A stretch of 25,260 bases of DNA from a virus: the IMG/VR virus record IMGVR_UViG_3300023296_001674; one strand, 5' to 3'. Positions 3,108 to 24,368 of the stretch are shown here, piece by piece; position 1 is the stretch's first letter; each line of letters starts with the position of its first letter. A program made the position numbers and the translations under genes. The notes under the pieces are model-generated. The model made no database searches. It was not told the DNA's origin and saw only the letters and a list, made by a program, of their open reading frames with translations.

Positions 3108-3394
3108 TTGAGCAAACGAGATCGAATACAGTGTTAACGCGGAACGAGACTGCTAGGAACACTTAAAATATACCTAATATGGGCGCGTTGTGGATGGATT
3201 TCCTTTTGTGGAATGATAAAAGCAATGGTAGGAAGCAAAGCGACCTACTAGGGAAAGCGTTATATGCTTTCCTGATAAGTTATTTTGTATGGAAGTGCCA
3301 TTAAAGCAGAACAATTGGTTTGGCGACCAAGCACCTTCGGGGCATAAAATCTGCTACTACTATACTATTTTAATCATAACTAAGTGTCACAAAA

Positions 3395-3464
3395 TATTGT
3401 ATGGTGTAGTGGTAACACGCTGCCTTTATCGGCGGAGCCGTGGGTTCGAGTCCTACTATGATAT
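3395..3464 (+). tRNA. tRNA-like gene: 7/7 acceptor stem (two G-U), D-arm gtgt/acac, GGTTCGAGTCC T-arm, but only a 6-nt anticodon loop and no encoded CCA
   Basis: Manual cloverleaf; acceptor tattgta pairs with tatgata. Confidence 0.35.
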
Positions 3465-3822
3465 TTGGATTACGTTCAGTGTGCACACCGAACGCCACAA
3501 ATTATCTGTTATTATCGCGATAGTGATAGATAATGTTGGGTCACTTAGTTATGATTAAAGTTTTTAGGGTGTTCGTCTAGTGGATTAGGACGCGCCGCCT
3601 TGGGTAGTTGGAGTTCGATTCTCCTTAGCAACGGTTACGTAAATCCGCACGGTGAGACATTGGTTCGAATCCAATACATGTTAAAATAACGATTTCACAT
3701 GAGATGTATAGTTTTAATGGATAAATCAGGCATGAGCCTTGTGCGGCAAGATAGTGGGTTCGATTCCCCTTGCGTTGAATGTGAAATGATGCTATATTGG
3801 TTTTTTAATATAGGAGATAATA

Positions 3823-6089: not shown

Positions 6090-6854
6090 TTAATCATTGT
6101 GTAGTTGCGTTTTTTCATATTCATCGACATCAAGTTTTAATTGTTTATATGTGATAGATGATGTATTACGTTTTTTTACATTATCTTTCTGAAGCATTAT
6201 TTCACAATTTAATGGATGTGTAATATAATATGGATCATACTTGTTAACAATTGATTCATTTATAGATATTTTATGATCCCTCGCTACACCGTTTGAATTT
6301 TTCTTTGGGACATACCAACCATGTTTTTTTATTAAATCTAAATTGAGTAGATTGGGATAATCATTGACATCAAATTTGAAATAATATGGACGTTTCGTAG
6401 TTTGAAGTTCTTTTGCTGTTCTACCATATTGTTCAACGCAGCATTGACATTTTGATATATACCGATCTTTGGCGGTGAAAAGTGTAATACAGGTGGAGCA
6501 AGTTCTAAACCATACCATGGAATATTCACCATCGATATATTTTTTTAGTTTATCCCATCTTTTTGGATAATGACCAATATCTTTTATGATTTTGATATGA
6601 CTTTTACTCATTCGTTCTTTAGTTTCATTGCTATGTTTGCGACGGCTATTATTATATTTGGCGGCACAAGATTGATTACAATATTTCTTTTTTATAAGTG
6701 CTTCATCGTATGACCATGATTTGCCGCATTGGTTGCATGTTTTTGGATTTTTATTATATTCGGCAATGCGATGGTTTTTTTGATTTATTTGCGTTTTTCG
6801 TGAAGCTATAAATCCTAATTTACCAGCTTCAGATTTGGACAATTTACATGTCAT
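6090..6854 (-). CDS. HNH-family homing endonuclease (254 aa), one of four paralogs; N-terminal CxxC / C-N-Q-SCAAKYNNSRRK zinc-binding-like motif, C-terminal RDHxxS...HPxNC core
   Basis: SD aagga upstream of the ATG at 6854; conserved C-terminal block shared with ORFs 8344, 11473 and 14042. Confidence 0.75.
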   Translation of the reverse strand: MTCKLSKSEAGKLGFIASRKTQINQKNHRIAEYNKNPKTCNQCGKSWSYDEALIKKKYCNQSCAAKYNNSRRKHSNETKERMSKSHIKIIKDIGHYPKRWDKLKKYIDGEYSMVWFRTCSTCITLFTAKDRYISKCQCCVEQYGRTAKELQTTKRPYYFKFDVNDYPNLLNLDLIKKHGWYVPKKNSNGVARDHKISINESIVNKYDPYYITHPLNCEIMLQKDNVKKRNTSSITYKQLKLDVDEYEKTQLHND

Positions 6855-8286: not shown

Positions 8287-8362
8287 TTCAGATGACCAAG
8301 CAAGTGAACGGGACCGCCTGTTAAGCGGATATTGCAGGGAGCGTTACCCTGATCTGGAGCCA
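8287..8362 (+). tRNA. tRNA-Asn, anticodon GUU, non-canonical T-loop agcgtta
   Basis: Acceptor ttcagat/atctgga, loop ctgttaa, T-stem caggg/ccctg. Confidence 0.7.
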
Positions 8363-8991
8363 ATAACTTTATATTTTTTGTCCCATTCATTTATTCGATG
8401 GTATAAATCATATAATGATAAACTTGAATGACGATTTTTAGATGAATTTTCTGGCTGTGGCATTATCTTGCAGTTCGCTGGATGTGATATATGATTTGGG
8501 TCTATTTTGTTTACAAATCCATCATGTACACTATACATGTGATCTCTTGTTAATCCGTTTTTATTTTTGGTACTATGATACATGCCCTGTTGATGTATCA
8601 TTATAAAATCAAATTCTTCTGGAAATGTTTGAAATGAAAATATAAATTTACATTGTTCTTTATATTTTATCTTCTCAATCATGTATTCTTGTGGTGTCAC
8701 CCTCATGGCATTTGTGCAAGTAACTGCACAACTTCTTCCGCAATAATATTCACGAGTTCCGGTTATAGGGCTAAATTTATTATTACATGTTGGATTTTTA
8801 CACTCGATTAGTCGTTTTTGATATTTTGTTAAATTTTTTACCGATATTTCTTTTTTGGTGAATATGCAACTACATGTAATATGTGATATTTTACCGTTGC
8901 TTTTGCCATGCATACGTGAATGACCATTCAATGCCATTAAGGATTTAAATTGATTATCGCATATATTACATGTATAAATATCTTTAGACAT
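8344..8991 (-). CDS. HNH-family homing endonuclease paralog (216 aa from the MSKDIYTCNIC start)
   Basis: The ORF track extends further, but GGAGG SD precedes the ATG at 8991; same conserved C-terminal core. Confidence 0.7.
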   Translation of the reverse strand: MSKDIYTCNICDNQFKSLMALNGHSRMHGKSNGKISHITCSCIFTKKEISVKNLTKYQKRLIECKNPTCNNKFSPITGTREYYCGRSCAVTCTNAMRVTPQEYMIEKIKYKEQCKFIFSFQTFPEEFDFIMIHQQGMYHSTKNKNGLTRDHMYSVHDGFVNKIDPNHISHPANCKIMPQPENSSKNRHSSLSLYDLYHRINEWDKKYKVIGSRSG

Positions 8992-9080
8992 TATCAACCT
9001 CCATTGGTTGTTATAGTTTAGAAGATATGGGGAATTCCAGTTCTCTATATCTTCGTTAGTATTTATCAATAACATATTAT

Positions 9081-9166
9081 TCGGATATAGGAGAATTGGT
9101 AGACCCAGAAGATTGTTAATCTTCCGCAGCAATGCATTCCAGGTTCGAGTCCTGGTATCCGAGCCA
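9081..9166 (+). tRNA. type-II-like tRNA (86 nt, Leu-like D-arm GAATTGGTAGA, variable-arm hairpin) whose anticodon loop reads GUU
   Basis: Acceptor tcggata/tatccga perfect, anticodon stem gaaga/tcttc, loop ttgttaa, T-arm ccaggTTCGAGTcctgg. Confidence 0.65.
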
Positions 9167-9167
9167 A

Positions 9168-9240
9168 TAACACCGTAGCGTAGAAAATAGTTACTTCGTT
9201 TCACTCACGACTGGAATGGGTTCGATTCCCATGCCCTGCG
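9168..9240 (+). tRNA. tRNA-like gene with D, anticodon and T arms but no matching 5' acceptor strand; no CCA
   Basis: T-arm atgggTTCGATTcccat; its 3' strand gccctgc pairs only with the downstream fragment at 9244. Confidence 0.35.
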
Positions 9241-9243
9241 TAA

Positions 9244-9272
9244 GCAGGGTTTAGTGTAATGGTAGCACAGTA
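9244..9272 (+). pseudogene. tRNA 5' fragment (acceptor gcagggt plus D-arm), complementary to the 3' end of the upstream tRNA-like gene
   Basis: gcagggt TT AGTG TAATGGTA GCAC, then no anticodon or T arm. Confidence 0.35.
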
Positions 9273-9353
9273 TATCTCTATTTTCGTTTTTTACTCGGTG
9301 TTGTTATTAATAAATAGAATTATACAAATTATTAGATTGGAGTTGTTATTTAA

Positions 9354-9684: not shown

Positions 9685-9759
<75 letters not shown>

Positions 9760-9849
9760 TATCGATGCGTAGTGTTAAGTTACTTCGATTTTTTTTAAAT
9801 AAAAAACCCAAAAACTCTTAATATGTCTTTTTCACGATGTTGATTTCAT

Positions 9850-9923
9850 AGGGGTATCGTATAGTGGTAATACGGTGGATTCCAAACTCACAGACCGGGG
9901 TTCGATCCCTCGTTCCCCTGCCA
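9850..9923 (+). tRNA. tRNA-Trp, anticodon CCA
   Basis: D-stem gtat/atac, loop ttccaaa, T-arm cggggTTCGATCcctcg. Confidence 0.75.
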
Positions 9924-9939
9924 ATTTAACGAGAATAAC

Positions 9940-11166
9940 ATGCATTTTATAATAAGTATCGATAGTGTATCAACGGATAGTCGGCATTATGACTGTGCCA
10001 AAAGTGATGAAAACTGTTGGCTTGATATATACGATGGCAATATCTATAACGATACTATATTAACCAATGCATTTTCATATAAAAACAAAACGATAAAACT
10101 TGATAAAGGTTGGCATACATTAGACCGCGACAAAGATGTTGTATGGTTTAAGGGTTATTCAACAGAAGCAAGATTGATTGATAGGGTTGAAGCCCGTAAT
10201 TATTCATCAATGGATGGAAATTATTGTTTTATTGTGTTTGATAAAACGACAGAATGTATTAACATATATCATGATACCAATCGTGGATTTGGTATATATT
10301 ATACAGATTCTATTATAACCAATTTATATACAATCAAAACATGCGTTAAGTTTGACGGGTGTATCATGGTAGATCACAATGACGAAATAATTGTTTCATC
10401 GTTACAGACAACGTTCACATTGCCTGATATAATTAAAGACAAATCTATTGACGATATGGCTGCTATTATAGCGCCTATGATGATTAAGAAAATCGAAGGA
10501 TTTATGAAATATAATAATGTGGTTGATTTAGAAATACAAGCAACTGGCGGTTTAGATACATTAACGGTGCGTGCATTATTAGATATCTGCGCGATTGATT
10601 ATAAATTGATTGATATAAAACCATTTAAAGATGGATGCAACTGGACTAATGATACAAATTCAATGATGGATATATTATCAAAATATCATTGGGGATTTCA
10701 GCAATGCAATTATTATGATGATATTACATATGTTGCCACTGGTTTTTGGGGCGATGAGTTATTGATGCGCAATCCGCTTCAAGTTCATTGGATATTGAAT
10801 CATTATGATATTGATTTATCGAATGAATATACAAAGCACCCTGATTCATATATGCTAGGATATTTTCAACAAGCGTATAAAGAGAAACTTATAGAACGCG
10901 ATAAAATATTTTCCAATGAAAATGAATTATATCAATATTCATTAGATTATGCACTTGATGAACCACAGATAACGCATGTTGATAATGTTATAATGTTTTC
11001 ACCATTTAAGGGTATTGACATATATATGAAAACACTCAATATGACGAATGAGGCAATATTAGAACAGGTTATAAATGGTGCACTGCAAAAGAAAATTATA
11101 TACGATATTAATCCTAAGTTATTGGATTGCTTAGAAAAATATAAAAATAGAAGAATACCAGTGTAA
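9940..11166 (+). CDS. asparagine-synthetase-like protein (408 aa): AsnB-type block GNYCFIVFD...IYHDTNRGFGIYY and PP-loop-like TGGLDT, but no N-terminal catalytic Cys
   Basis: Motif recall of AsnB (MFAFALYD...GRDHLGIIPLYMGY; SGGLDS). Confidence 0.5.
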   Translation: MHFIISIDSVSTDSRHYDCAKSDENCWLDIYDGNIYNDTILTNAFSYKNKTIKLDKGWHTLDRDKDVVWFKGYSTEARLIDRVEARNYSSMDGNYCFIVFDKTTECINIYHDTNRGFGIYYTDSIITNLYTIKTCVKFDGCIMVDHNDEIIVSSLQTTFTLPDIIKDKSIDDMAAIIAPMMIKKIEGFMKYNNVVDLEIQATGGLDTLTVRALLDICAIDYKLIDIKPFKDGCNWTNDTNSMMDILSKYHWGFQQCNYYDDITYVATGFWGDELLMRNPLQVHWILNHYDIDLSNEYTKHPDSYMLGYFQQAYKEKLIERDKIFSNENELYQYSLDYALDEPQITHVDNVIMFSPFKGIDIYMKTLNMTNEAILEQVINGALQKKIIYDINPKLLDCLEKYKNRRIPV

Positions 11167-11228: not shown

Positions 11229-11498
11229 ATGGATAATAGTACATTAATAGCGTTAGGAAGTTTGTTGTTTGCCATGATTGGTGGATTTTGGGGTGTCATA
11301 ACATACATCCTTGGAATCATCAAGGTGGAAAACGTTGAACGTCGTGGTGTCCAAGAAAAATTATATATGCGCGATGATGTAGCCAAAGATGTAATGAACG
11401 AAAGTTTAACAGAAGTAAAAAGTACCATCCGTGATACGAATGATAGACTCATACGTGTAGAAACAATATTATATGAAAGAACTGATAGAACAAAATAA
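11229..11498 (+). CDS. small membrane protein (89 aa), one N-terminal TM helix
   Basis: Hydrophobic segment LIALGSLLFAMIGGFWGVITYILGII. Confidence 0.45.
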   Translation: MDNSTLIALGSLLFAMIGGFWGVITYILGIIKVENVERRGVQEKLYMRDDVAKDVMNESLTEVKSTIRDTNDRLIRVETILYERTDRTK

Positions 11499-12108
11499 AA
11501 TATGGTTTTTAAGCAAAACGGTAATACGTTGTATAAATAGTTATATGGTTGATTTAAGAAAGAGTTTGCAAACACCAAAAGTTTGCTGTATTGAATGTAA
11601 AACAATATTTAGAACTAATCATTTTGTTAGACACTCGAAGAAGCGATGTATTGAGTGGAAAAAGAAAAACGGCATGATCCCAAAAGGGAAGCGTGGCGGT
11701 TGGAATAAAGGATTAACGAAAATGACTAGTTCGTTGGTCAAAAAAGGAACCGATACTTATCGTCGCCGTTATGAAAATGGTGAATATACACGACGCACAC
11801 AAACCGATGATATAAAGAAACAATATTGGCAAGATTGTAAATTTAAATTCAATGTTTATAATTATCCTGAAATATTTGACTTAAATTTACTCGATAAATT
11901 TGGGTGGTATCATCCTGTAGAAAATCCAAGTGGCGTAAGTAGAGATCATATTATTTCTGTATCATATGGATGGAAAAATGGTATAGATTCGAATATTATT
12001 AATCATATAGCCAATTGTAAATTGATGATTCATTTAGAAAATAACAAAAAAAATAATCGATCTGATTTATTATTAGAAGAATTATTACAAAAAATACACT
12101 CTATGTAG
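11473..12108 (+). CDS. HNH-family homing endonuclease paralog (211 aa)
   Basis: SGVSRDHIISVSYGWKNGIDSNIINHIANCKLM core; N-terminal CxxC pairs. Confidence 0.7.
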   Translation: MKELIEQNKIWFLSKTVIRCINSYMVDLRKSLQTPKVCCIECKTIFRTNHFVRHSKKRCIEWKKKNGMIPKGKRGGWNKGLTKMTSSLVKKGTDTYRRRYENGEYTRRTQTDDIKKQYWQDCKFKFNVYNYPEIFDLNLLDKFGWYHPVENPSGVSRDHIISVSYGWKNGIDSNIINHIANCKLMIHLENNKKNNRSDLLLEELLQKIHSM

Positions 12109-13329: not shown

Positions 13330-13400
13330 ACCTCCGCTGATGGTTCAGACATAAGCTTGCGAAGCTTGTTGGGAAAGTTCGATTCTTTTCGGGGGTTCCA
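13330..13400 (+). tRNA. compact tRNA (71 nt), anticodon loop ttgcgaa (GCG, Arg-like)
   Basis: Acceptor acctccg/cgggggt, T-arm gaaagTTCGATTctttt. Confidence 0.5.
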
Positions 13401-13441
13401 ATATTGTTATAGCTATGGAAATTAGTTCCTTCTTATCCCAA

Positions 13442-13509
13442 CCTGTAGGTCGTAGGTTCGAATCCTGCTCCTCGCGCCAATTATGCGGGGATAGCTCAGT
13501 GGTAGAGCA
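13442..13509 (+). tRNA. split/permuted-looking tRNA locus: 3' portion (13442-13479, anticodon 3' stem through encoded CCA), then attat, then 5' portion (13485-13509, acceptor plus D-arm GCGGGGATAGCTCAGTGGTAGAGCA)
   Basis: The 3' acceptor tcctcgc pairs 7/7 with the downstream gcgggga; anticodon 3' stem cctgt pairs with the downstream actgg. Confidence 0.4.
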
Positions 13510-13562
13510 ACTGGCAATTTTACTGGTTCCAATTATTATAGCAATATTTTATTAAATAGGTC

Positions 13563-13765: not shown

Positions 13766-13843
13766 TGACTAGTAGCTCAGTGGTTTAGAGCGGGGAGTTC
13801 TAAACTCTCGACAGCGTTGGTTCAAATCCAACCTGGTCAACCA
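13766..13843 (+). tRNA. tRNA with anticodon CUA (amber-suppressor-like); U1-A72 acceptor
   Basis: D-arm GCTCAGTGGTTTAGAGC, anticodon stem gggag/ctctc, loop ttctaaa, T-arm gttggTTCAAATccaac, CCA encoded. Confidence 0.6.
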
Positions 13844-13850
13844 ATACTAA

Positions 13851-14022
13851 GCGGGTATCGTATAATGGTATTATCGCAGCCTTCCATGTGATATGTTTAA
13901 CATATCTCAGGTTGAGCCATTTATTGGCTCCTTGAAGGTCGAGGGTTCAGACCCCATCCGGTTTAAGCCCGGTAGACCAACTTAAGCTGATGACGGGAGT
14001 TCGATTCTCCCTACCCGCTCCA
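13851..14022 (+). tRNA. tRNA-Gly(UCC)-like gene interrupted by a structured insertion of about 98 nt in the anticodon loop (about 13887-13984)
   Basis: 5' part gcgggta TC GTATAATGGTATTAT... and 3' part ...GACGGGAGTTCGATTCTCCCTACCCGCTCCA match the Gly tRNAs at 9685 and 12508; the 7/7 acceptor pairing exists only across the insertion. Confidence 0.5.
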
Positions 14023-14041
14023 ATATTTGATAAATAGTTAT

Positions 14042-14818
14042 ATGAAATGTAAACAATGTAAAATATCATTTACCCCTATCCCACAAGCAAAAAAAGGTAT
14101 ATTTTGTTCGCACGATTGTCATAATGTATACCAGCGCGTAAATACTCGTGAGCAATACTTAAAAAATCCCAAACGGTGTATTTTTTGTGATGATATAATA
14201 TCATATAGAGAAAATATAAAAGTGGCGAAGTTTTGCAATAGGTCTTGCGGGGCAAAATATAATAATAAAAGACGTACAGAATGCGGATACACCCCAAGTC
14301 ATAAAAAATGGTCTAGTGGTAAAATATCTGCTAAAATGTCATCAAAAATGCGCCGTGCGGATATCAAATCAAGTGTCGTGTTTGGTGATTTTACTATAAT
14401 AACATTTGCTATATGCAATATTACGAATAAACCATATGTTCTACAAACACCGCATGGTGGTATAAAGCAAATATCACCATATATTAAATCATCTAAACAG
14501 ATATATTATGAGCAAGCCAAATTTCGATTTAATGTATATGACTATCCAGATATATTTGATATAACACTTTTAGAAAAATATGGATGGTATACATGTCCCG
14601 GCAAGAAACGAAAAAATCAAAAAAAGAATATAAATGGTGTAAGTAGAGATCATATAATATCTATCAATGATGGATTTAAGAATGGGTATGATCCATATAT
14701 TTTAGCACATCCTGCTAATTGTCGATTGATTAAACAAGTGGATAATGTTAAAAAATTAGATAAATCTAATATGTCATATGACGAGTTATTGATTAACATA
14801 AAACAATGGAATGGATAG
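14042..14818 (+). CDS. HNH-family homing endonuclease paralog (MKCKQCK start; the ORF track's TTG at 14027 overlaps the tRNA), TAG stop
   Basis: CNRSCGAKYNNKRR motif and NGVSRDHIISINDGFKNGYDPYILAHPANCRL core. Confidence 0.7.
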   Translation: MKCKQCKISFTPIPQAKKGIFCSHDCHNVYQRVNTREQYLKNPKRCIFCDDIISYRENIKVAKFCNRSCGAKYNNKRRTECGYTPSHKKWSSGKISAKMSSKMRRADIKSSVVFGDFTIITFAICNITNKPYVLQTPHGGIKQISPYIKSSKQIYYEQAKFRFNVYDYPDIFDITLLEKYGWYTCPGKKRKNQKKNINGVSRDHIISINDGFKNGYDPYILAHPANCRLIKQVDNVKKLDKSNMSYDELLINIKQWNG

Positions 14819-14825
14819 ACTATTC

Positions 14826-14900
14826 GCCCCTATAGTACAATGGTTAATATGATCGCCCGGTAAGCGATAGATGAAAGTTCGATTCTTTCTAGAGGCACCA
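14826..14900 (+). tRNA. tRNA-Thr, anticodon GGU
   Basis: Anticodon stem atcgc/gcgat perfect, loop ccggtaa, T-arm gaaagTTCGATTctttc. Confidence 0.8.
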
Positions 14901-14912
14901 ATAAATAACAAT

Positions 14913-15728
14913 ATGACAATGACACCACCAAATATTATAATTTATAGTAATCCACGTTCAGGAACCACATTGCTTCATCATACATTATTATTATTTTTTC
15001 AAGAATATTATGGTGATTATTATTGTGATTTACATGAATTCTTTACAACATCGCATATGACAACGAGACATCGTAATAATATAGATGAAATAAATTCCAT
15101 TACGTATGAACAGAATAACAATATATTAATAAAGACATACAAGCCAGCAGATACCGAAAGCAATGACTTCGAAGAAGAATTGCAACAACGAATTTCACAA
15201 TGGAACAATTGTGTAATAGCTGATAACAATCAGCCGTTTATAACAAAAATATTTCACAAAAATTTGATTGATCACAATTTTTCAAATACAATATTTGATC
15301 ATTCATTAAATTTGGTTCTTGTAAGAAAAAACGTACAAGATATGATATTGAGTTTTATAATATCAAATAGCAACAATAACTGGTTTTATTATGAAAATGA
15401 AAATATAGAAACATTGCGCGGAAGTTTGATTGGTGATATAGATATAATACGCATTCATTTGGAACGCAATAAATTATTTCTTGAAAATATACCCAATATA
15501 CCCAATGCATTAATCATTGATTATGATGAACTTAATGACTATGAATATTTTTATCAAGTTATTATAGATATGGGCATTGTTGATATTCGTGAATTGCATG
15601 CCATGGAAATATTTGATAACATACAGCTAAAACGTAAAATTATTCCAACACCATATACAATGGATCGTATAGATTATTTTAAGAATGCCAATGAAATAAA
15701 AACACTCATGGATGAATATTGTTCTTGA
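14913..15728 (+). CDS. sulfotransferase-like protein (PRSGTT PAPS-binding-like motif near the N-terminus), 272 aa from the ATG at 14913
   Basis: NPRSGTTLLH resembles the sulfotransferase 5'-PSB loop; the ORF track start at 14871 overlaps a tRNA. Confidence 0.45.
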   Translation: MTMTPPNIIIYSNPRSGTTLLHHTLLLFFQEYYGDYYCDLHEFFTTSHMTTRHRNNIDEINSITYEQNNNILIKTYKPADTESNDFEEELQQRISQWNNCVIADNNQPFITKIFHKNLIDHNFSNTIFDHSLNLVLVRKNVQDMILSFIISNSNNNWFYYENENIETLRGSLIGDIDIIRIHLERNKLFLENIPNIPNALIIDYDELNDYEYFYQVIIDMGIVDIRELHAMEIFDNIQLKRKIIPTPYTMDRIDYFKNANEIKTLMDEYCS

Positions 15729-16799: not shown

Positions 16800-17129
16800 A
16801 TGGATAAAGCTGCGCTAAAAACACTTTCCGATACTCTTAATCGGATATGGGGAATCCCTGAACCAAGGGTCTATTATCCGAATAAACATTTCGAAAAACC
16901 TGAACCAGTTGAACAGACAATGTTCTCAGTGTTCATTCTTGACGCTGGTCCTAAACGGATTAACGTCATTAAAGAAATCAGATCAATCTTAGGATTGACC
17001 CTGAAAGAATCAAAGGATTTTGTTGATAATATAGACAAGAGCCTTGTTCAAGAAGACTTAGAAAAATGGGATGCAGATGCATTAGCCGAAACATTATCAA
17101 ATGTTGGAGCAACTGTTGAAGTTTCTTAA
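16800..17129 (+). CDS. ribosomal protein bL12 (L7/L12) C-terminal-domain homolog fused to a novel N-terminal segment (109 aa)
   Basis: FSVFILDAGPKRINVIKEIRSILGLTLKESKDFVDN...DADALAETLSNVGATVEV matches the bL12 CTD pattern. Confidence 0.6.
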   Translation: MDKAALKTLSDTLNRIWGIPEPRVYYPNKHFEKPEPVEQTMFSVFILDAGPKRINVIKEIRSILGLTLKESKDFVDNIDKSLVQEDLEKWDADALAETLSNVGATVEVS

Positions 17130-18079: not shown

Positions 18080-19063
18080 ATGGATAACAACAATTACAAC
18101 GATTTAAAACAGCGTTTGGTTAATGCAGGATGTTTCGAACGAGCGACATCGCATTATGTTCTACGTATTACAGCAATTCTAATTGCTTATGTGGGAGCAT
18201 ATTTTGTTCTGCTTACACAGCCACTAGGATTGGTTGCAGTGGGTGCATTGATTATTGCAGCCTTTGCCAGCGTTCAGGCTGGTTTCATTTCACACGATGC
18301 TGGTGATGGCGGTATTACATCAAATAAGATGCTATCTACCGGTATGCGACAATTCTTTTTATCGTTTGTTACTGGTGTGAGTAGTTCATATTTTCATGCA
18401 CTACATAAAGTGCATCACAAAACAATGTTTAAAGGATCATCGAAATCATCCGACACAGTTTCAGAAAATGAATACGAAGGCAAATGGTTGAAGAAATTAG
18501 TTTCACGTGATGGTTTGTTATTCATGGTAACGATGGTTACATTACGGGGATTCACATTCAAATTTGAAAGTGTAAAATATATGCTTAAACACGCCAATAA
18601 AACCGCCGCAGATCAACTGTTGGTGGGATTGCACGTTGTAGCATGGCTGATCGTTCCAATGATGATTATTGGACCAGTAGCCATTCTAAACTATGCATTA
18701 TTGACGTTGTTGATTGGACCTTATATCGGAACGGTATTGGTTATTAATCATGCCGGTATGGTAACAGCAAACCGACAAATGCATTTGCCTAAATTTGAAC
18801 GCGTAGTAAATACTACACGCAATCTTGGTGACGGCGTTTGGAACAATCTGTTCTTCGGTGGTGTAAACAACCATATTGAACACCATTTGTTTCCGGGTGT
18901 GCCAGTGCCAAATCTAGGTGAAGCTAGAAAGATTACTGAAGCCTTTTGTGAAGAACGTGGTATTAAATACACCAAAGCTTCATATTTCAGCGCATTAATC
19001 GAAGCCAAAGACCATTTCAAGGGTTTGTCTTCACAGAGATTAGTTGCTGAAGCACTCAACTAA
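18080..19063 (+). CDS. membrane fatty-acid-desaturase-family protein (desaturase / carotenoid-ketolase-like His boxes)
   Basis: HDAGD, HKVHH and HIEHHLFPGVP boxes with several TM segments; SD aggag. Confidence 0.65.
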   Translation: MDNNNYNDLKQRLVNAGCFERATSHYVLRITAILIAYVGAYFVLLTQPLGLVAVGALIIAAFASVQAGFISHDAGDGGITSNKMLSTGMRQFFLSFVTGVSSSYFHALHKVHHKTMFKGSSKSSDTVSENEYEGKWLKKLVSRDGLLFMVTMVTLRGFTFKFESVKYMLKHANKTAADQLLVGLHVVAWLIVPMMIIGPVAILNYALLTLLIGPYIGTVLVINHAGMVTANRQMHLPKFERVVNTTRNLGDGVWNNLFFGGVNNHIEHHLFPGVPVPNLGEARKITEAFCEERGIKYTKASYFSALIEAKDHFKGLSSQRLVAEALN

Positions 19064-20328: not shown

Positions 20329-20436
20329 TTCCAAGTAGCTCAGATGGTAGAGCGTCTGACTGTGGAACAGATGAGCCTAAAGCTTTGAAGTTCAAATTTA
20401 ATCAGAATGTCGGCGGTTCGATCCCGTCCTTGGAAG
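20329..20436 (+). tRNA. tRNA-His-like (anticodon GUG, second copy) with a structured insertion of about 40 nt in the variable position; no CCA
   Basis: Acceptor ttccaag/cttggaa perfect, D-arm GCTCAGATGGTAGAGC, loop ctgtgga, T-arm ggcggTTCGATCccgtc. Confidence 0.5.
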
Positions 20437-20575: not shown

Positions 20576-20667
20576 GCCTCGGTAGCTCAGAAAAGCAACG
20601 TAAGTTGTAGTGTAGTAGCAGGTGACTGAACCTCACCGTGTCGGTAGTTCGAATCTATCCTGGGGCA
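20576..20667 (+). tRNA. tRNA-like gene, 92 nt: canonical 3' two-thirds (anticodon stem ggtga/tcacc, loop ctgaacc = GAA) with about 17 extra nt between D and anticodon arms; no CCA
   Basis: Acceptor gcctcgg/ctggggc, T-arm ggtagTTCGAATctatc. Confidence 0.45.
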
Positions 20668-23768: not shown

Positions 23769-24368
23769 GTGCGGAAGCATCTACATACACGAACACTGTT
23801 GACACACTACGGAGGTGTCTTCATCGATAATAATGTCGAAGAAGTTATAGTTCCGTCGTTATGGGAACAGCAGACATTTATTGATAAAGCAGGAAGTGAA
23901 ATTGTAAATCAGATGTGGGCATTTGAAGATAAGAAAAATCGCCCCGTATGTTTGATACCAGAAGTTACTGGTGTTATACAAGAAATGTGGCGCGATGATT
24001 GGAGTAAATCCAAACCAAAGCCATATTCTATTTTTTATGTGAATCGTTGTTATCGTTATGAACGACCACAGAAGGGTAGATATAGAGAATTCACACAAAT
24101 CGGATTAGAAATTCTTGGTGATACATCAGGGAATGATTACGATATGGCAATTAATTTATTGCAAAAGTGTCTCGATTGTTTTACTATAGATTATAAACTT
24201 ACAGAAACGGTACAACGCGGTTTGGCGTATTATGTTGATGATGGGTTTGAAGTCGAATGTGAGAAGTTGGGCGCACAGAAGCAAATTGCTGGTGGTGGTC
24301 GATACAATGAAGGTATTGGTTGGGCTATCGGCGTTGATAGATTAATATTGGGGATTGATGATGACTAG
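23769..24368 (+). CDS. minimal class II aaRS catalytic core of the HisRS/HisZ type (motif 1 region FEDKKNRPVCLIPEVT, motif 2 YRYERPQKGRYREFTQ, motif 3 GGGRYNEG), lacking the insertion and anticodon-binding domains
   Basis: Motif recall against E. coli HisS; an upstream ATG at 23741 with SD aaggag opens a different frame (MLRGTRL...), suggesting a frameshift at about 23790. Confidence 0.65.
   Translation: MRKHLHTRTLLTHYGGVFIDNNVEEVIVPSLWEQQTFIDKAGSEIVNQMWAFEDKKNRPVCLIPEVTGVIQEMWRDDWSKSKPKPYSIFYVNRCYRYERPQKGRYREFTQIGLEILGDTSGNDYDMAINLLQKCLDCFTIDYKLTETVQRGLAYYVDDGFEVECEKLGAQKQIAGGGRYNEGIGWAIGVDRLILGIDDD

What the first reader, a model, noticed from the sequence alone, without database searches (positions are those of the whole stretch)
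13442..13509. tRNA 3' half directly upstream of its complementary 5' half (permuted or split arrangement)
Segment 13442-13479 is anticodon 3' stem (cctgt), a 5-nt variable loop, T-arm gtaggTTCGAATcctgc, acceptor 3' strand tcctcgc, G, CCA. After only attat comes 13485-13509: a textbook 5' half, GCGGGGA TA GCTC AGTGGTA GAGC A ACTGG. Its acceptor strand pairs 7/7 with the upstream 3' strand, and its actgg pairs with the upstream cctgt. Pairing in both acceptor and anticodon stems is what a circularly permuted tRNA gene needs (as in Cyanidioschyzon), and is not what a chance juxtaposition of two different decayed genes predicts. The alternative is a recombination scar between two copies of the same tRNA.
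Basis: seen in the sequence. Interest (0 to 1): 0.7.

Follow-up and report, generated by a model that had tools for sequence, protein, structure and literature searches.

The report
Phage Y RNA shaped like tRNA
The "back-to-front tRNA" is real, but it is the tRNA-like core of a YrlA-type Y RNA, a known class of small RNA that partners the Ro60 protein, here as a divergent extra copy inside the tRNA gene array of a very large phage.

Summary
At 13442-13514 a T arm and a 3' acceptor strand with GCCA are followed after AUUAU by the matching 5' acceptor strand and a D arm. The acceptor stem pairs 7/7, far beyond chance.

It is not a permuted tRNA gene and not a recombination scar. It is the tRNA-like module of a YrlA-type Y RNA spanning about 13400-13548. 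That module is described in the literature as resembling a circularly permuted tRNA.

- **Family match.** A covariance model built from 13 Ro60-type phage YrlA RNAs, without this element, matches it full length (78.8 bits). Tandem-tRNA junctions score 29 bits or less.
- **Ro60 partner.** The same phage, on a contig of about 570 kb, carries a Ro60 gene about 14 kb upstream on the same strand. It also has a canonical YrlA at 9164-9315 and two mini-Y RNAs.
- **Counterpart.** A related phage has a counterpart (L128 16434-16597) with the same NCCA + WUUAU acceptor loop. Of 24 stem bases, 11 differ and all 12 pairs are kept.
- **What is unusual.** The CCA is encoded, which predicts RNase P cleavage into a two-piece RNA, as shown for Mycobacterium smegmatis YrlA. 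The Ro-binding motifs are degenerate, and the Ro60 gene is itself split.

Verdict: a new member of a known kind, of moderate interest.

The parts
13400..13412 (+). 5' strand of the outer closing stem (AAUAUUGUUAUAG). It starts at the A of the CCA of the preceding degenerate tRNA.
   Evidence: RNAfold pairs it with 13536-13548 over 13 bp. The duplex is significant. The equivalent stem in L128 16434-16597 is AAUAUUACCG/CGGUAAUAUU.
13413..13415 (+). 5' side of a small internal loop (CUA). It occupies the position of the conserved Ro-binding motif GCGUAGA of canonical relatives.
   Evidence: In the cmsearch alignment the GcGuAGA consensus aligns to GCUAUG--GA. Comparison with 10 or more clade members that carry GCGUAG.
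13416..13426 (+). 5' strand of stem B (UGGAAaUUAGU, with A13421 bulged).
   Evidence: RNAfold. It aligns to the covarying helix 1 of the family, where all 6 pairs show changes on both sides.
13427..13441 (+). Linker or 'V' region (UCCUUCUUAUCCCAA). With G13425-U13426 it forms GUUCCUUC, a degenerate copy of the family's invariant G(U/A)UACUUC.
   Evidence: UACUU is invariant in A1, and here A is replaced by C.
13442..13451 (+). CCUGU (equivalent of tRNA positions 39-43, pairs with ACUGG 13510-13514, 4 of 5) and the 5-nt variable loop AGGUC, which carries G45, G46 and C48.
   Evidence: The same CCUG/CUGG is present in L128 16434-16597.
13452..13468 (+). T arm: GUAGG-UUCGAAU-CCUGC.
   Evidence: Rfam YrlA alignment. 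R1 alignment.
13469..13491 (+). Closed acceptor stem-loop: UCCUCGC, G73, CCA, AUUAU, GCGGGGA. The predicted RNase P site lies between U13484 and G13485. The predicted mature 3' end is A13479.
   Evidence: 7/7 pairing. The NCCA followed by AU(A/U) is the 3'-end context of 26 of 27 tRNAs in this array. The counterpart has UUUCCCC-ACCA-UUUAU-GGGGAAA. [quoted passage not shown]
13492..13509 (+). U8, A9, D arm GCUC-AGUGGUA-GAGC, A26.
   Evidence: The bases for the standard tRNA tertiary contacts are all present: U8:A14, G15:C48, G18/G19 with the T loop, G53:C61, U54:A58.
13510..13521 (+). ACUGG (partner of CCUGU) and the 3' linker CAAUUUU.
13522..13531 (+). 3' strand of stem B (ACUGGUUCCA).
13532..13548 (+). 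3' side of the internal loop (AUUA, where relatives have UCGUUUUUUACUC) and the 3' strand of the outer stem (UUAUAGCAAUAUU).
13330..13400 (+). Degenerate tRNA-like gene (anticodon loop CUUGCGAAG, short D arm, ends UCCA) directly upstream. Its 3' end probably defines the 5' end of the Y RNA.
   Evidence: Rfam tRNA 24.7 bits, below the gathering score. The L128 counterpart likewise starts straight after the CCA of tRNA-Asp.
9164..9315 (+). Canonical YrlA paralogue of the same phage. Its Ro-binding motifs are intact and its acceptor stem GCCCUGC/GCAGGGU is closed by GUAA.
   Evidence: R1 gives 104.7 bits, but it is a seed member. Its fold shows outer stem, 7x10 internal loop, stem B and tRNA-like module.
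9753..9854 (+). Mini-Y RNA: Ro-stem motifs without the tRNA module.
   Evidence: R1 35.4 bits.

Best explanation
Window 13400-13548 (+) encodes a YrlA-type Y RNA. The 5' and 3' ends pair into a long closing helix. The centre is a tRNA-like module made of variable loop, T arm, a closed 7-bp 'acceptor' stem-loop and D arm. That is a tRNA core with the acceptor end closed and the anticodon end open, which is why it reads as '3' half before 5' half'. It is a divergent paralogue of the phage's canonical YrlA at 9164-9315. It belongs to a set of Y RNAs that accompany the phage's Ro60 (TROVE plus vWA) gene.

**Shown here**
- Family membership by covariance model.
- A counterpart with compensatory changes in a related phage.
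- A Ro60 gene on the same strand.
- An intact tRNA core.

**Inferred mechanism**
- The RNA is made as part of the tRNA-array transcript, and its 5' end comes from 3' processing of the preceding tRNA-like gene.
- It has a tRNA-length 7-bp acceptor stem followed by G73-CCA and the array's usual AU-rich trailer. Host RNase P should therefore cut before G13485 and exonucleases should trim back to CCA13479.
- The product would be a two-piece RNA held together by the acceptor stem and the closing helix, as shown experimentally for M. smegmatis YrlA.
- The tRNA-like module then acts as the effector or stability module. [quoted passage not shown]
- The Ro-binding internal loop is replaced here by a nearly continuous helix. 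This copy probably binds Ro60 weakly or not at all, so it may be a decaying or neofunctionalised paralogue.
For: **Family match**
- Rfam RF02553 YrlA is the only family that hits the site: 32.4 bits, model positions 24-84. A genuine Ro-adjacent phage YrlA (L107) scores only 39.5 bits.
- Model R1 was built from 13 Ro60-type phage YrlA elements without this one. 9 of them have a TROVE gene in the fetched locus. R1 matches 13401-13560 full length at 78.8 bits, E about 1e-15. Tandem-tRNA junctions score 29.1 bits or less.
- The family structure covaries. 98.1% of cells are paired against 41-46% when partners are slid, and 18 of 21 pairs have changes on both sides.

**Counterpart in a related phage**
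- L128 16434-16597 (not a seed, 101.3 bits) shares AACCUG...GAGCAACUGG, a 7-bp acceptor stem and an NCCA + WUUAU loop.
- 11 of 24 acceptor and T-stem bases differ, yet all 12 pairs are kept. Random substitution does this in a fraction of 2.5e-5 of trials.

**Ro60 partner**
- A Ro60 gene lies at window -3410..-620 on the same strand.
- It is 71% identical over its length to the intact 525-aa TROVE protein P0013.
- The order Ro60, IF3, tRNA array, HisRS-like gene is conserved in relatives.

**Other support**
- Closed-acceptor tRNA-like modules next to TROVE genes recur in many viral contigs.
- The closing duplex is significant.
- Literature: YrlA architecture, the resemblance to a circularly permuted tRNA, and RNase P/CCA processing of the 7-bp-stem YrlA (PMC4201824; 10.1101/312249). 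Phage Ro60 with Y-like RNAs and host PNPase (PMC12135203).
Against: **Degenerate Ro-binding hallmarks.** These are conserved in all other members of the clade.
- GCGUAG(A) is replaced by GCUAUGGA.
- G(U/A)UACUUC is replaced by GUUCCUUC. The A is invariant in A1.
- UUCG.UUUUU.CUC is replaced by UUCCAAUUAUUAUAG.

**Other points**
- The element lies about 14 kb from the Ro60 gene, outside the 4-kb criterion used to define YrlA.
- The Ro60 gene is split by a homing-endonuclease-like ORF and carries a CAA-to-TAA nonsense codon.
- Much of the R1 score comes from the tRNA module. Module-only hits in other loci reach 52-71 bits.
- Only one counterpart lineage was found, and overall identity to it is only 61%.
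- There are no expression or processing data.
Confidence: 0.8

Rival explanations
1. It is a decaying, non-functional pseudogene copy of a YrlA gene. It is homologous to Y RNAs but no longer used, sitting in a tRNA array that is being reshuffled by homing endonucleases.
For: - The Ro-binding motifs are mutated at positions invariant in the family.
- The phage's Ro60 gene is interrupted and carries a nonsense codon.
- The immediate upstream neighbour is a sub-threshold, degenerate tRNA.
- Four paralogous endonuclease-like ORFs (phrog_23051) lie in the array.
Against: - Every helix is intact: outer stem 13/13, stem B 10/10, T 5/5, acceptor 7/7, D 4/4. All tRNA tertiary-contact bases are present.
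- Differences from the L128 counterpart in the stems are compensated.
- The Ro loop is replaced by extended pairing rather than by disorder.
- The canonical YrlA and two mini-Y RNAs in the same phage keep intact motifs, so the Ro system is not obviously dead.
Confidence: 0.15
2. It is a circularly permuted tRNA gene of the Cyanidioschyzon type. The flanks pair, the precursor is cut and circularised, and the acceptor loop is then opened to give a normal decoding tRNA.
For: - The order 3' half, linker, 5' half, with leader and trailer pairing and an encoded CCA.
- Wang et al. note the resemblance of YrlA to such genes.
Against: - No anticodon loop can be assembled. After ACUGG comes CAAUUUU, and before CCUGU comes ...UUAUCCCAA, in an asymmetric internal loop followed by a 23-bp helix.
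- The genome is a bacteriophage. No bacterial equivalent of the splicing endonuclease is reported.
- The flanks are homologous to Y-RNA Ro stems.
Confidence: 0.02
3. It is a scar or chance junction: the 3' part of one tRNA copy next to the 5' part of a tandem copy after deletions. This is the known false-positive class for YrlA searches.
For: - The array has many tandem duplicates (Phe-Phe, Asp-Asp, Ile-Ile).
- The loop GCCA-AUUAU looks exactly like a tRNA 3' end plus spacer in this array.
- Chen et al. warn about dimeric tRNAs.
Against: - No tRNA in the window shares this acceptor stem.
- Real tandem junctions score 29 bits or less with R1, against 78.8.
- The flanks form a significant 23-bp helix.
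- The same layout, with a different compensated acceptor stem, exists in L128/L129.
Confidence: 0.02

Closest known systems
YrlA (Y RNA-like A; Rfam RF02553), especially Mycobacterium smegmatis YrlA and the phage YrlAs of Chen et al. 2014
   Same: - Closing helix formed by the 5' and 3' ends.
- The order variable region, T arm, closed acceptor stem-loop, D arm.
- tRNA tertiary-contact bases.
- A Ro60 gene on the same strand.
- Several Y RNAs per genome.
- A 7-bp acceptor stem as in M. smegmatis, which is cut by RNase P and ends in CCA.
   Different: - The CCA is fully encoded, together with a tRNA-style AU-rich trailer. In M. smegmatis a CA is added after cleavage.
- The Ro-binding motifs are degenerate.
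- The gene lies about 14 kb from Ro60, inside a tRNA array, rather than within 4 kb.
- Rfam scores it below the gathering threshold and only over the tRNA module.
Circularly permuted tRNA genes (Cyanidioschyzon merolae and other algae; Soma et al. 2007, as cited in 10.1101/312249)
   Same: Gene order 3' half, linker, 5' half, with pairing of leader and trailer.
   Different: There is no anticodon loop and no bulge-helix-bulge junction. The host is a bacterial system. The flanks are Y-RNA stems.
Two-piece (permuted) tmRNA
   Same: Permuted gene order with a T arm and CCA-ending piece upstream of the piece that supplies the 5' acceptor strand. An intervening loop is removed to give a two-piece RNA.
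   Different: - No tag reading frame and no pseudoknots.
- A full D arm.
- G3-C70 rather than G3-U70.
- Not called by ARAGORN or by the Rfam tmRNA models.
Thermus phage phiLo Ro60 with Yrl1/Yrl2 (PMC12135203)
   Same: Phage-encoded Ro60 with more than one phage-encoded Y-like RNA. These form complexes with host PNPase.
   Different: Those RNAs lie directly upstream of the Ro60 gene. They were identified by a CGAA motif. No tRNA-like, CCA-bearing module is described in the passages read.

Membership tests
YrlA-type Y RNA | Conserved T and D stem-loops with a stem-loop between them in the place of the acceptor stem, in the order T, AS, D. | tested here: met
   Rfam alignment to model positions 24-84. 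R1 alignment shows all T, acceptor and D pairs standard.
YrlA-type Y RNA | tRNA tertiary-interaction bases, including the 15:48 Levitt pair. | tested here: met
   Read from the sequence: U8, A14, G15 with C48, G18 G19, G53-C61, U54/A58, G45/G46.
YrlA-type Y RNA | The 5' and 3' ends pair into a stem that closes the RNA. In the family alignment this is the covarying stem B. | tested here: met
   Stem B aligns to family helix 1 with no non-standard pair.
YrlA-type Y RNA | Ro60-binding motif near the 5' end (GNCGAAN0-1G in Chen et al.; GCGUAGA ... G(U/A)UACUUC ... UUCG.UUUUU.CUC in this phage clade). | tested here: not met
   GCUAUGGA, GUUCCUUC and UUCCAAUUAUUAUAG occupy the aligned positions. A regular-expression search for GNCGAAN0-1G found nothing in the 75 nt upstream of the T loop (13380-13454).
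YrlA-type Y RNA | Encoded within 4 kb of a Ro60 (TROVE) gene on the same strand. | tested here: not met
   The strand is the same, but the gene is about 14 kb downstream of the Ro60 gene (L126 6037-8827 = window -3410..-620). The canonical paralogue at 9164 is also about 10 kb away. In L128 the two YrlAs lie 5-8 kb from Ro60.
YrlA-type Y RNA | Binding by Ro60, and modification by TruB and DusA. | not testable with these tools
   Needs EMSA or immunoprecipitation, and modification mapping.
Circularly permuted tRNA gene | All parts of a tRNA are present, including a 7-nt anticodon loop that can be reconstituted at the junction. | tested here: not met
   No anticodon loop. The stem opens into a 15x7 internal loop and then a helix.
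Circularly permuted tRNA gene | A bulge-helix-bulge junction and a host tRNA splicing endonuclease. | tested here: not met
   The fold shows no 3-4-3 bulge-helix-bulge geometry. The context is a bacteriophage. No such enzyme is reported in bacteria.
Two-piece tmRNA | Tag reading frame, pseudoknots, and a G3:U70 alanine identity pair. | tested here: not met
   ARAGORN finds no tmRNA. There is no Rfam tmRNA hit at the site. Pair 3:70 is G-C.
Tandem tRNA junction or deletion scar | Each half continues into the rest of its own tRNA or a remnant of it, and there is no selection for pairing between the halves. | tested here: not met
   No matching halves on either side. Compensated stems in the counterpart. 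The metagenome hits to the same T arm and D arm were all ordinary tandem tRNAs with unmatched acceptors.

The most novel reading that the evidence does not exclude
The most novel reading not excluded is a distinct 'type B' Y RNA. It is defined by a genomically encoded discriminator, CCA and tRNA-style trailer inside a 7-bp acceptor stem-loop, conserved between two large phages. It would be matured by RNase P and 3' trimming into a two-piece, CCA-ended and possibly aminoacylatable tRNA mimic. In this phage it has shed its Ro60-binding loop and would work independently of Ro60, for example as a decoy for host tRNA-targeting nucleases, tRNA-modifying enzymes, synthetases or EF-Tu during infection.
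Probability: 0.12. Interest if true: 0.7.

Novelty: new member of a known kind. Interest (0 to 1): 0.38.

Why it matters
- **Annotation.** A pattern that looks like an exotic permuted tRNA is explained by a known RNA class. Rfam's YrlA model and ARAGORN both miss or under-score such phage Y RNAs. The canonical copy at 9164-9315 is not found by Rfam at all.
- **Biology.** A phage of about 570 kb carries a small family of Y RNAs (two YrlA types and mini-Y RNAs) threaded through its tRNA array, together with a Ro60 gene.
- **Testable prediction.** One YrlA type keeps a tRNA-like, CCA-encoding acceptor end. This gives a concrete and easily tested prediction of RNase P-dependent maturation into a two-piece tRNA mimic.
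- **Ro60 dependence.** This copy has lost the Ro-binding loop but kept a perfect tRNA core. It is therefore a natural test of whether the tRNA-like module has a function independent of Ro60.

Tried and rejected
**Searches for close relatives that found nothing**
- Megablast and tblastn of the window against GenBank phages. Only the DUF7275 protein matched distant phages.
- IMG/VR scans with the 408-aa neighbour protein and with an element-specific pattern.
- The single metagenome pattern scan returned only ordinary tandem tRNAs.
- A homologue search with the sulfotransferase-like neighbour returned only itself.
- Exact look-ups of two window proteins were not on record.

**Ideas tested and dropped**
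- Stop-codon recoding as a reason for short ORFs: no gain from reading through TAG or TGA.
- A Ro-like identity for the 408-aa ORF 9940-11166: no Pfam or PHROG hit and no similarity to a DUF2828 protein.
- No TROVE gene inside the window itself. It was found only by extending leftwards.

**Limits of the library models**
- Rfam YrlA did not detect the YrlAs in relatives L128, L130 and L132, nor the canonical copy in the window. I therefore wrote a custom scanner and built a custom covariance model.
- Relatives other than L128/L129 have only mini or insert-bearing Y RNAs just upstream of Ro60 within the fetched 10-kb flanks. Only one counterpart lineage is therefore available.

**Other**
- A motif search for a possible ochre-suppressor anticodon loop was uninformative.
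- One review (PMC10870794) is not held.

Full report
**1. The observation**

- CCUGU (13442-13446)
- AGGUC
- T arm GUAGG-UUCGAAU-CCUGC (13452-13468)
- acceptor 3' strand UCCUCGC
- G, CCA, AUUAU
- acceptor 5' strand GCGGGGA (13485-13491)
- UA, then D arm GCUC-AGUGGUA-GAGC (13494-13508)
- A, ACUGG (13510-13514)

Three details need correction.
- The feature ends at 13514, not 13509.
- The acceptor helix is 6 Watson-Crick pairs plus one G-U.
- CCUGU/ACUGG pairs 4 of 5, with a central U-U mismatch.

ARAGORN finds 27 tRNAs in the window but none here.

**2. Context**

The window is an AT-rich bacteriophage tRNA array.
- It has phage-type proteins: DUF7275, thymidine kinase, and four paralogous endonuclease-like ORFs of phrog_23051.
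- 26 of 27 tRNAs encode CCA followed by AU(A/U).
- A protein identical to the 408-aa ORF lies on a contig of 570,750 bp. An independent assembly, L125, is 99.995% identical to the window.
- There are no close relatives in GenBank phages or IMG/VR.
- The standard genetic code fits.

**3. The lead**

Rfam's only hit at the site is RF02553 YrlA (Y RNA-like): 32.4 bits, model positions 24-84, which is the tRNA-like module only. RNAfold adds a long closing helix:
- 13400-13412 pairs with 13536-13548 (13 bp).
- 13416-13426 pairs with 13522-13531 (10 bp, one bulge).
- This duplex was reached by 0 of 2000 shuffles and by 14 of 3000 same-geometry genomic controls.

Chen et al. 2014 (PMC4201824) define YrlA by four features:
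- a Ro60-binding motif near the 5' end;
- T and D arms with a closed 'acceptor' stem-loop between them;
- location within 4 kb of the Ro60 gene on the same strand;
- tandem tRNAs as a known class of false positive.

They also show that M. smegmatis YrlA, whose acceptor stem is 7 bp, is cut by RNase P and ends in CCA. Wang et al. [quoted passage not shown]

**4. Is this a real class in phages?**

I scanned viral contigs for a T loop followed by a D arm and obtained 120 junctions.
- Acceptor complementarity was bimodal, with 23 at 7/7.
- The flanks of the closed-acceptor elements fall into classes.
- One class carries GCG(U/A)AGA ... UUACUUC and lies next to TROVE plus vWA (Ro60) genes.
- Another class carries ACAGCAA and lies next to DUF2828 plus DUF7788 genes.
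- None of them reaches Rfam's YrlA gathering score. A Ro60-adjacent example scores 39.5 bits. Rfam's score therefore cannot decide membership.

**5. The phage's own Ro60 system**

Extending the window leftwards (L126) reveals a Ro60 gene on the + strand at window -3410..-620. It is in three pieces:
- an N-terminal TROVE part;
- an inserted endonuclease-like ORF (DUF7487, PD-(D/E)XK);
- a C-terminal TROVE part ending ...VVDQSGSM, then an in-frame TAA, then the rest of the vWA domain.

The joined pieces are 55-71% identical over 98-99% of their length to the closest intact TROVE proteins, which are 518-543 aa long. The TAA aligns with a Gln codon of P0013. Contigs of relatives share the order ClpX, Ro60, IF3, tRNA array, HisRS-like gene. 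In the window the array is about three times longer.

A custom scanner and the sequences themselves then showed a canonical YrlA at window 9164-9315.
- It carries ACCGUAGCGUAGAAAAUAGUUACUUCG on the 5' side.
- Its acceptor stem GCCCUGC/GCAGGGU is closed by GUAA.
- It carries CUAUUUUCGUUUUUUACUCGGU on the 3' side.
- A counterpart lies at L128 19231-19393.

**6. Family test**

I aligned 13 class-1 elements without the finding (A1).
- RNAalifold gives stem B, T arm, closed acceptor and D arm. 16 of 21 pairs show compensatory changes.
- I built model R1 from this alignment.
- R1 matches the finding at 13401-13560 over the full model at 78.8 bits, E about 1e-15, with every modelled pair standard. 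E-values from this model are rough.
- tRNA-tRNA junctions in the same search score 29.1 bits or less.
- On the 21-sequence alignment made by the model, 98.1% of cells are paired, against 41-46% when partners are slid. 18 of 21 pairs have changes on both sides. That alignment is fitted to the model, so it leans towards the structure.
- R1 also finds mini-Y RNAs, which have the Ro-stem motifs but no tRNA module. They lie at window 9753-9854, at L126 5572-5658 (about 380 nt upstream of Ro60), and just upstream of Ro60 in every relative.

**7. A counterpart**

L128/L129 16434-16597 was not a seed and scores 101.3 bits. It shares with the finding:
- a start directly after a tRNA's CCA (CCAAUAUU...);
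- AACCUG ... GAGCAACUGG;
- a 7-bp acceptor stem;
- a loop of discriminator, CCA and WUUAU (ACCA-UUUAU against GCCA-AUUAU).

Between the two, 11 of 24 acceptor and T-stem bases differ and all 12 pairs are kept. Only 2.5e-5 of random substitution sets achieve that. Overall identity is 61%, the highest of the finding's comparisons. This rules out a local deletion scar. It also indicates that the CCA-bearing acceptor loop is a conserved feature of this YrlA type.

**8. What is unusual here**

In all other members of the clade the closing helix is interrupted by a conserved internal loop and motifs: GCGUAG(A), G(U/A)UACUUC and UUCG.UUUUU.CUC.
- In the finding these read GCUAUGGA, GUUCCUUC and UUCCAAUUAUUAUAG.
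- The loop has shrunk to 3x4 nt between extended helices.
- The tRNA core is nevertheless flawless.
- The L128 counterpart shows the reverse: intact Ro motifs but a deviant T loop (UGCAAAU) and D loop.

**9. Mechanism**

Shown here: homology to YrlA, conserved structure, a Ro60 gene in cis, and the tRNA-style acceptor end.

Inferred from published YrlA and RNase P biology:
- co-transcription with the array;
- a 5' end set by processing of the upstream tRNA-like gene;
- RNase P cleavage before G13485 and trimming to CCA13479, giving a two-piece tRNA mimic;
- the module serving as the effector or stability domain of a Ro60 ribonucleoprotein, which in studied systems recruits PNPase (PMC12135203).

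Because the Ro-binding loop is lost, this copy probably binds Ro60 poorly. It is either on its way to decay or acts through its tRNA-like end alone.

**10. Rivals**

- **Non-functional YrlA pseudogene** (about 0.15). The degenerate Ro motifs and the split Ro60 gene favour it. The perfectly preserved and compensated helices argue against it.
- **Genuine permuted tRNA gene** (about 0.02). It fails for lack of an anticodon loop and of a bacterial circularising pathway.
- **Tandem-tRNA scar** (about 0.02). It fails on the counterpart, the model score and the flanking helix.

**11. Verdict**

The finding is a real feature and a new, divergent member of a known kind (YrlA-type Y RNAs). It is of moderate interest for three reasons:
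- its genomically encoded CCA acceptor loop;
- its loss of the Ro-binding motifs;
- its setting among several Y RNAs in the tRNA array of a megaphage.

Noticed in passing
window 9164-9315 (+): A canonical YrlA-type Y RNA with intact Ro-binding motifs and an acceptor stem closed by a GUAA tetraloop. Rfam RF02553 does not detect it even at E<=0.1.
   Followed up: yes
window 9753-9854 (+); L126 5572-5658; L128 9614-9710, 9766-9852, 17648-17745: Mini-Y RNAs carry the Ro-stem motifs (GCGUAG, GUUACUUCG, UUUUUC.CG) without a tRNA-like module. One follows tRNA-Gly(GCC) both in the window and in L128. Others sit just upstream of the Ro60 gene.
   Followed up: partly
L126 6037-8827 (= window -3410..-620): The phage Ro60 (TROVE plus vWA) gene is split by an inserted endonuclease-like ORF (DUF7487, PD-(D/E)XK). 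It also carries a CAA-to-TAA nonsense codon inside the MIDAS motif DQSGSM(Q). Intact homologues are 55-71% identical.
   Followed up: yes
window 13851-14022 (+): tRNA-Gly(UCC) has an insert of about 95 nt at the canonical 37/38 position of the anticodon loop, which is too short for a typical group I intron. A homing-endonuclease-like ORF (14027-14818) follows directly. Rfam also reports insert-bearing tRNAs at 3566-3683, 20329-20436 and 20576-20667, and many more in other phage tRNA arrays (L041, L059, L066, L068, L089).
   Followed up: no
window 13766-13843 and 3394-3465 (+): There is a tRNA with anticodon CUA (an amber suppressor, labelled Pyl by ARAGORN), although the ORFs show no sign of TAG recoding. 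There is also an odd tRNA with a 6-nt anticodon loop, UUUAUC.
   Followed up: partly
window 6090-6854 (-), 8344-9204 (-), 11473-12108 (+), 14027-14818 (+): Four paralogous HNH / endonuclease VII-like ORFs (phrog_23051) are scattered through the tRNA array. They are probably the agents of its expansion and rearrangement relative to related phages.
   Followed up: partly
L058, L032, L012, L014, L013, L017/L070, L034, L059, L066, L102 (viral contigs): A second class of closed-acceptor tRNA-like RNAs has a conserved ACAGCAA motif in the 5' flank. They often occur as two tandem copies and lie next to DUF2828 plus DUF7788 proteins rather than TROVE-annotated Ro60. A full-text search for DUF2828 returned no paper on RNA partners.
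   Followed up: partly
L041 2749-2835 and 3065-3115; L004 6488-6551: Closed-acceptor tRNA-like modules with a third flank type (CCAAUGCUUAUUUCUU) lie in phage tRNA arrays that also carry GOLLD RNA. No Ro-like gene was seen in the fetched stretch.
   Followed up: no
L115 2896-3185 (-): A permuted (two-piece) tmRNA gene lies in a viral contig's tRNA array (Rfam, 101 bits).
   Followed up: no
window 16800-17129, 23769-24368, 18080-19063, 14871-15728; L126 8867-9382: Translation-related and unusual auxiliary genes are present: an L7/L12-like ORF, a truncated HisRS-like ORF, IF3, a fatty-acid desaturase and a sulfotransferase-like ORF.
   Followed up: no
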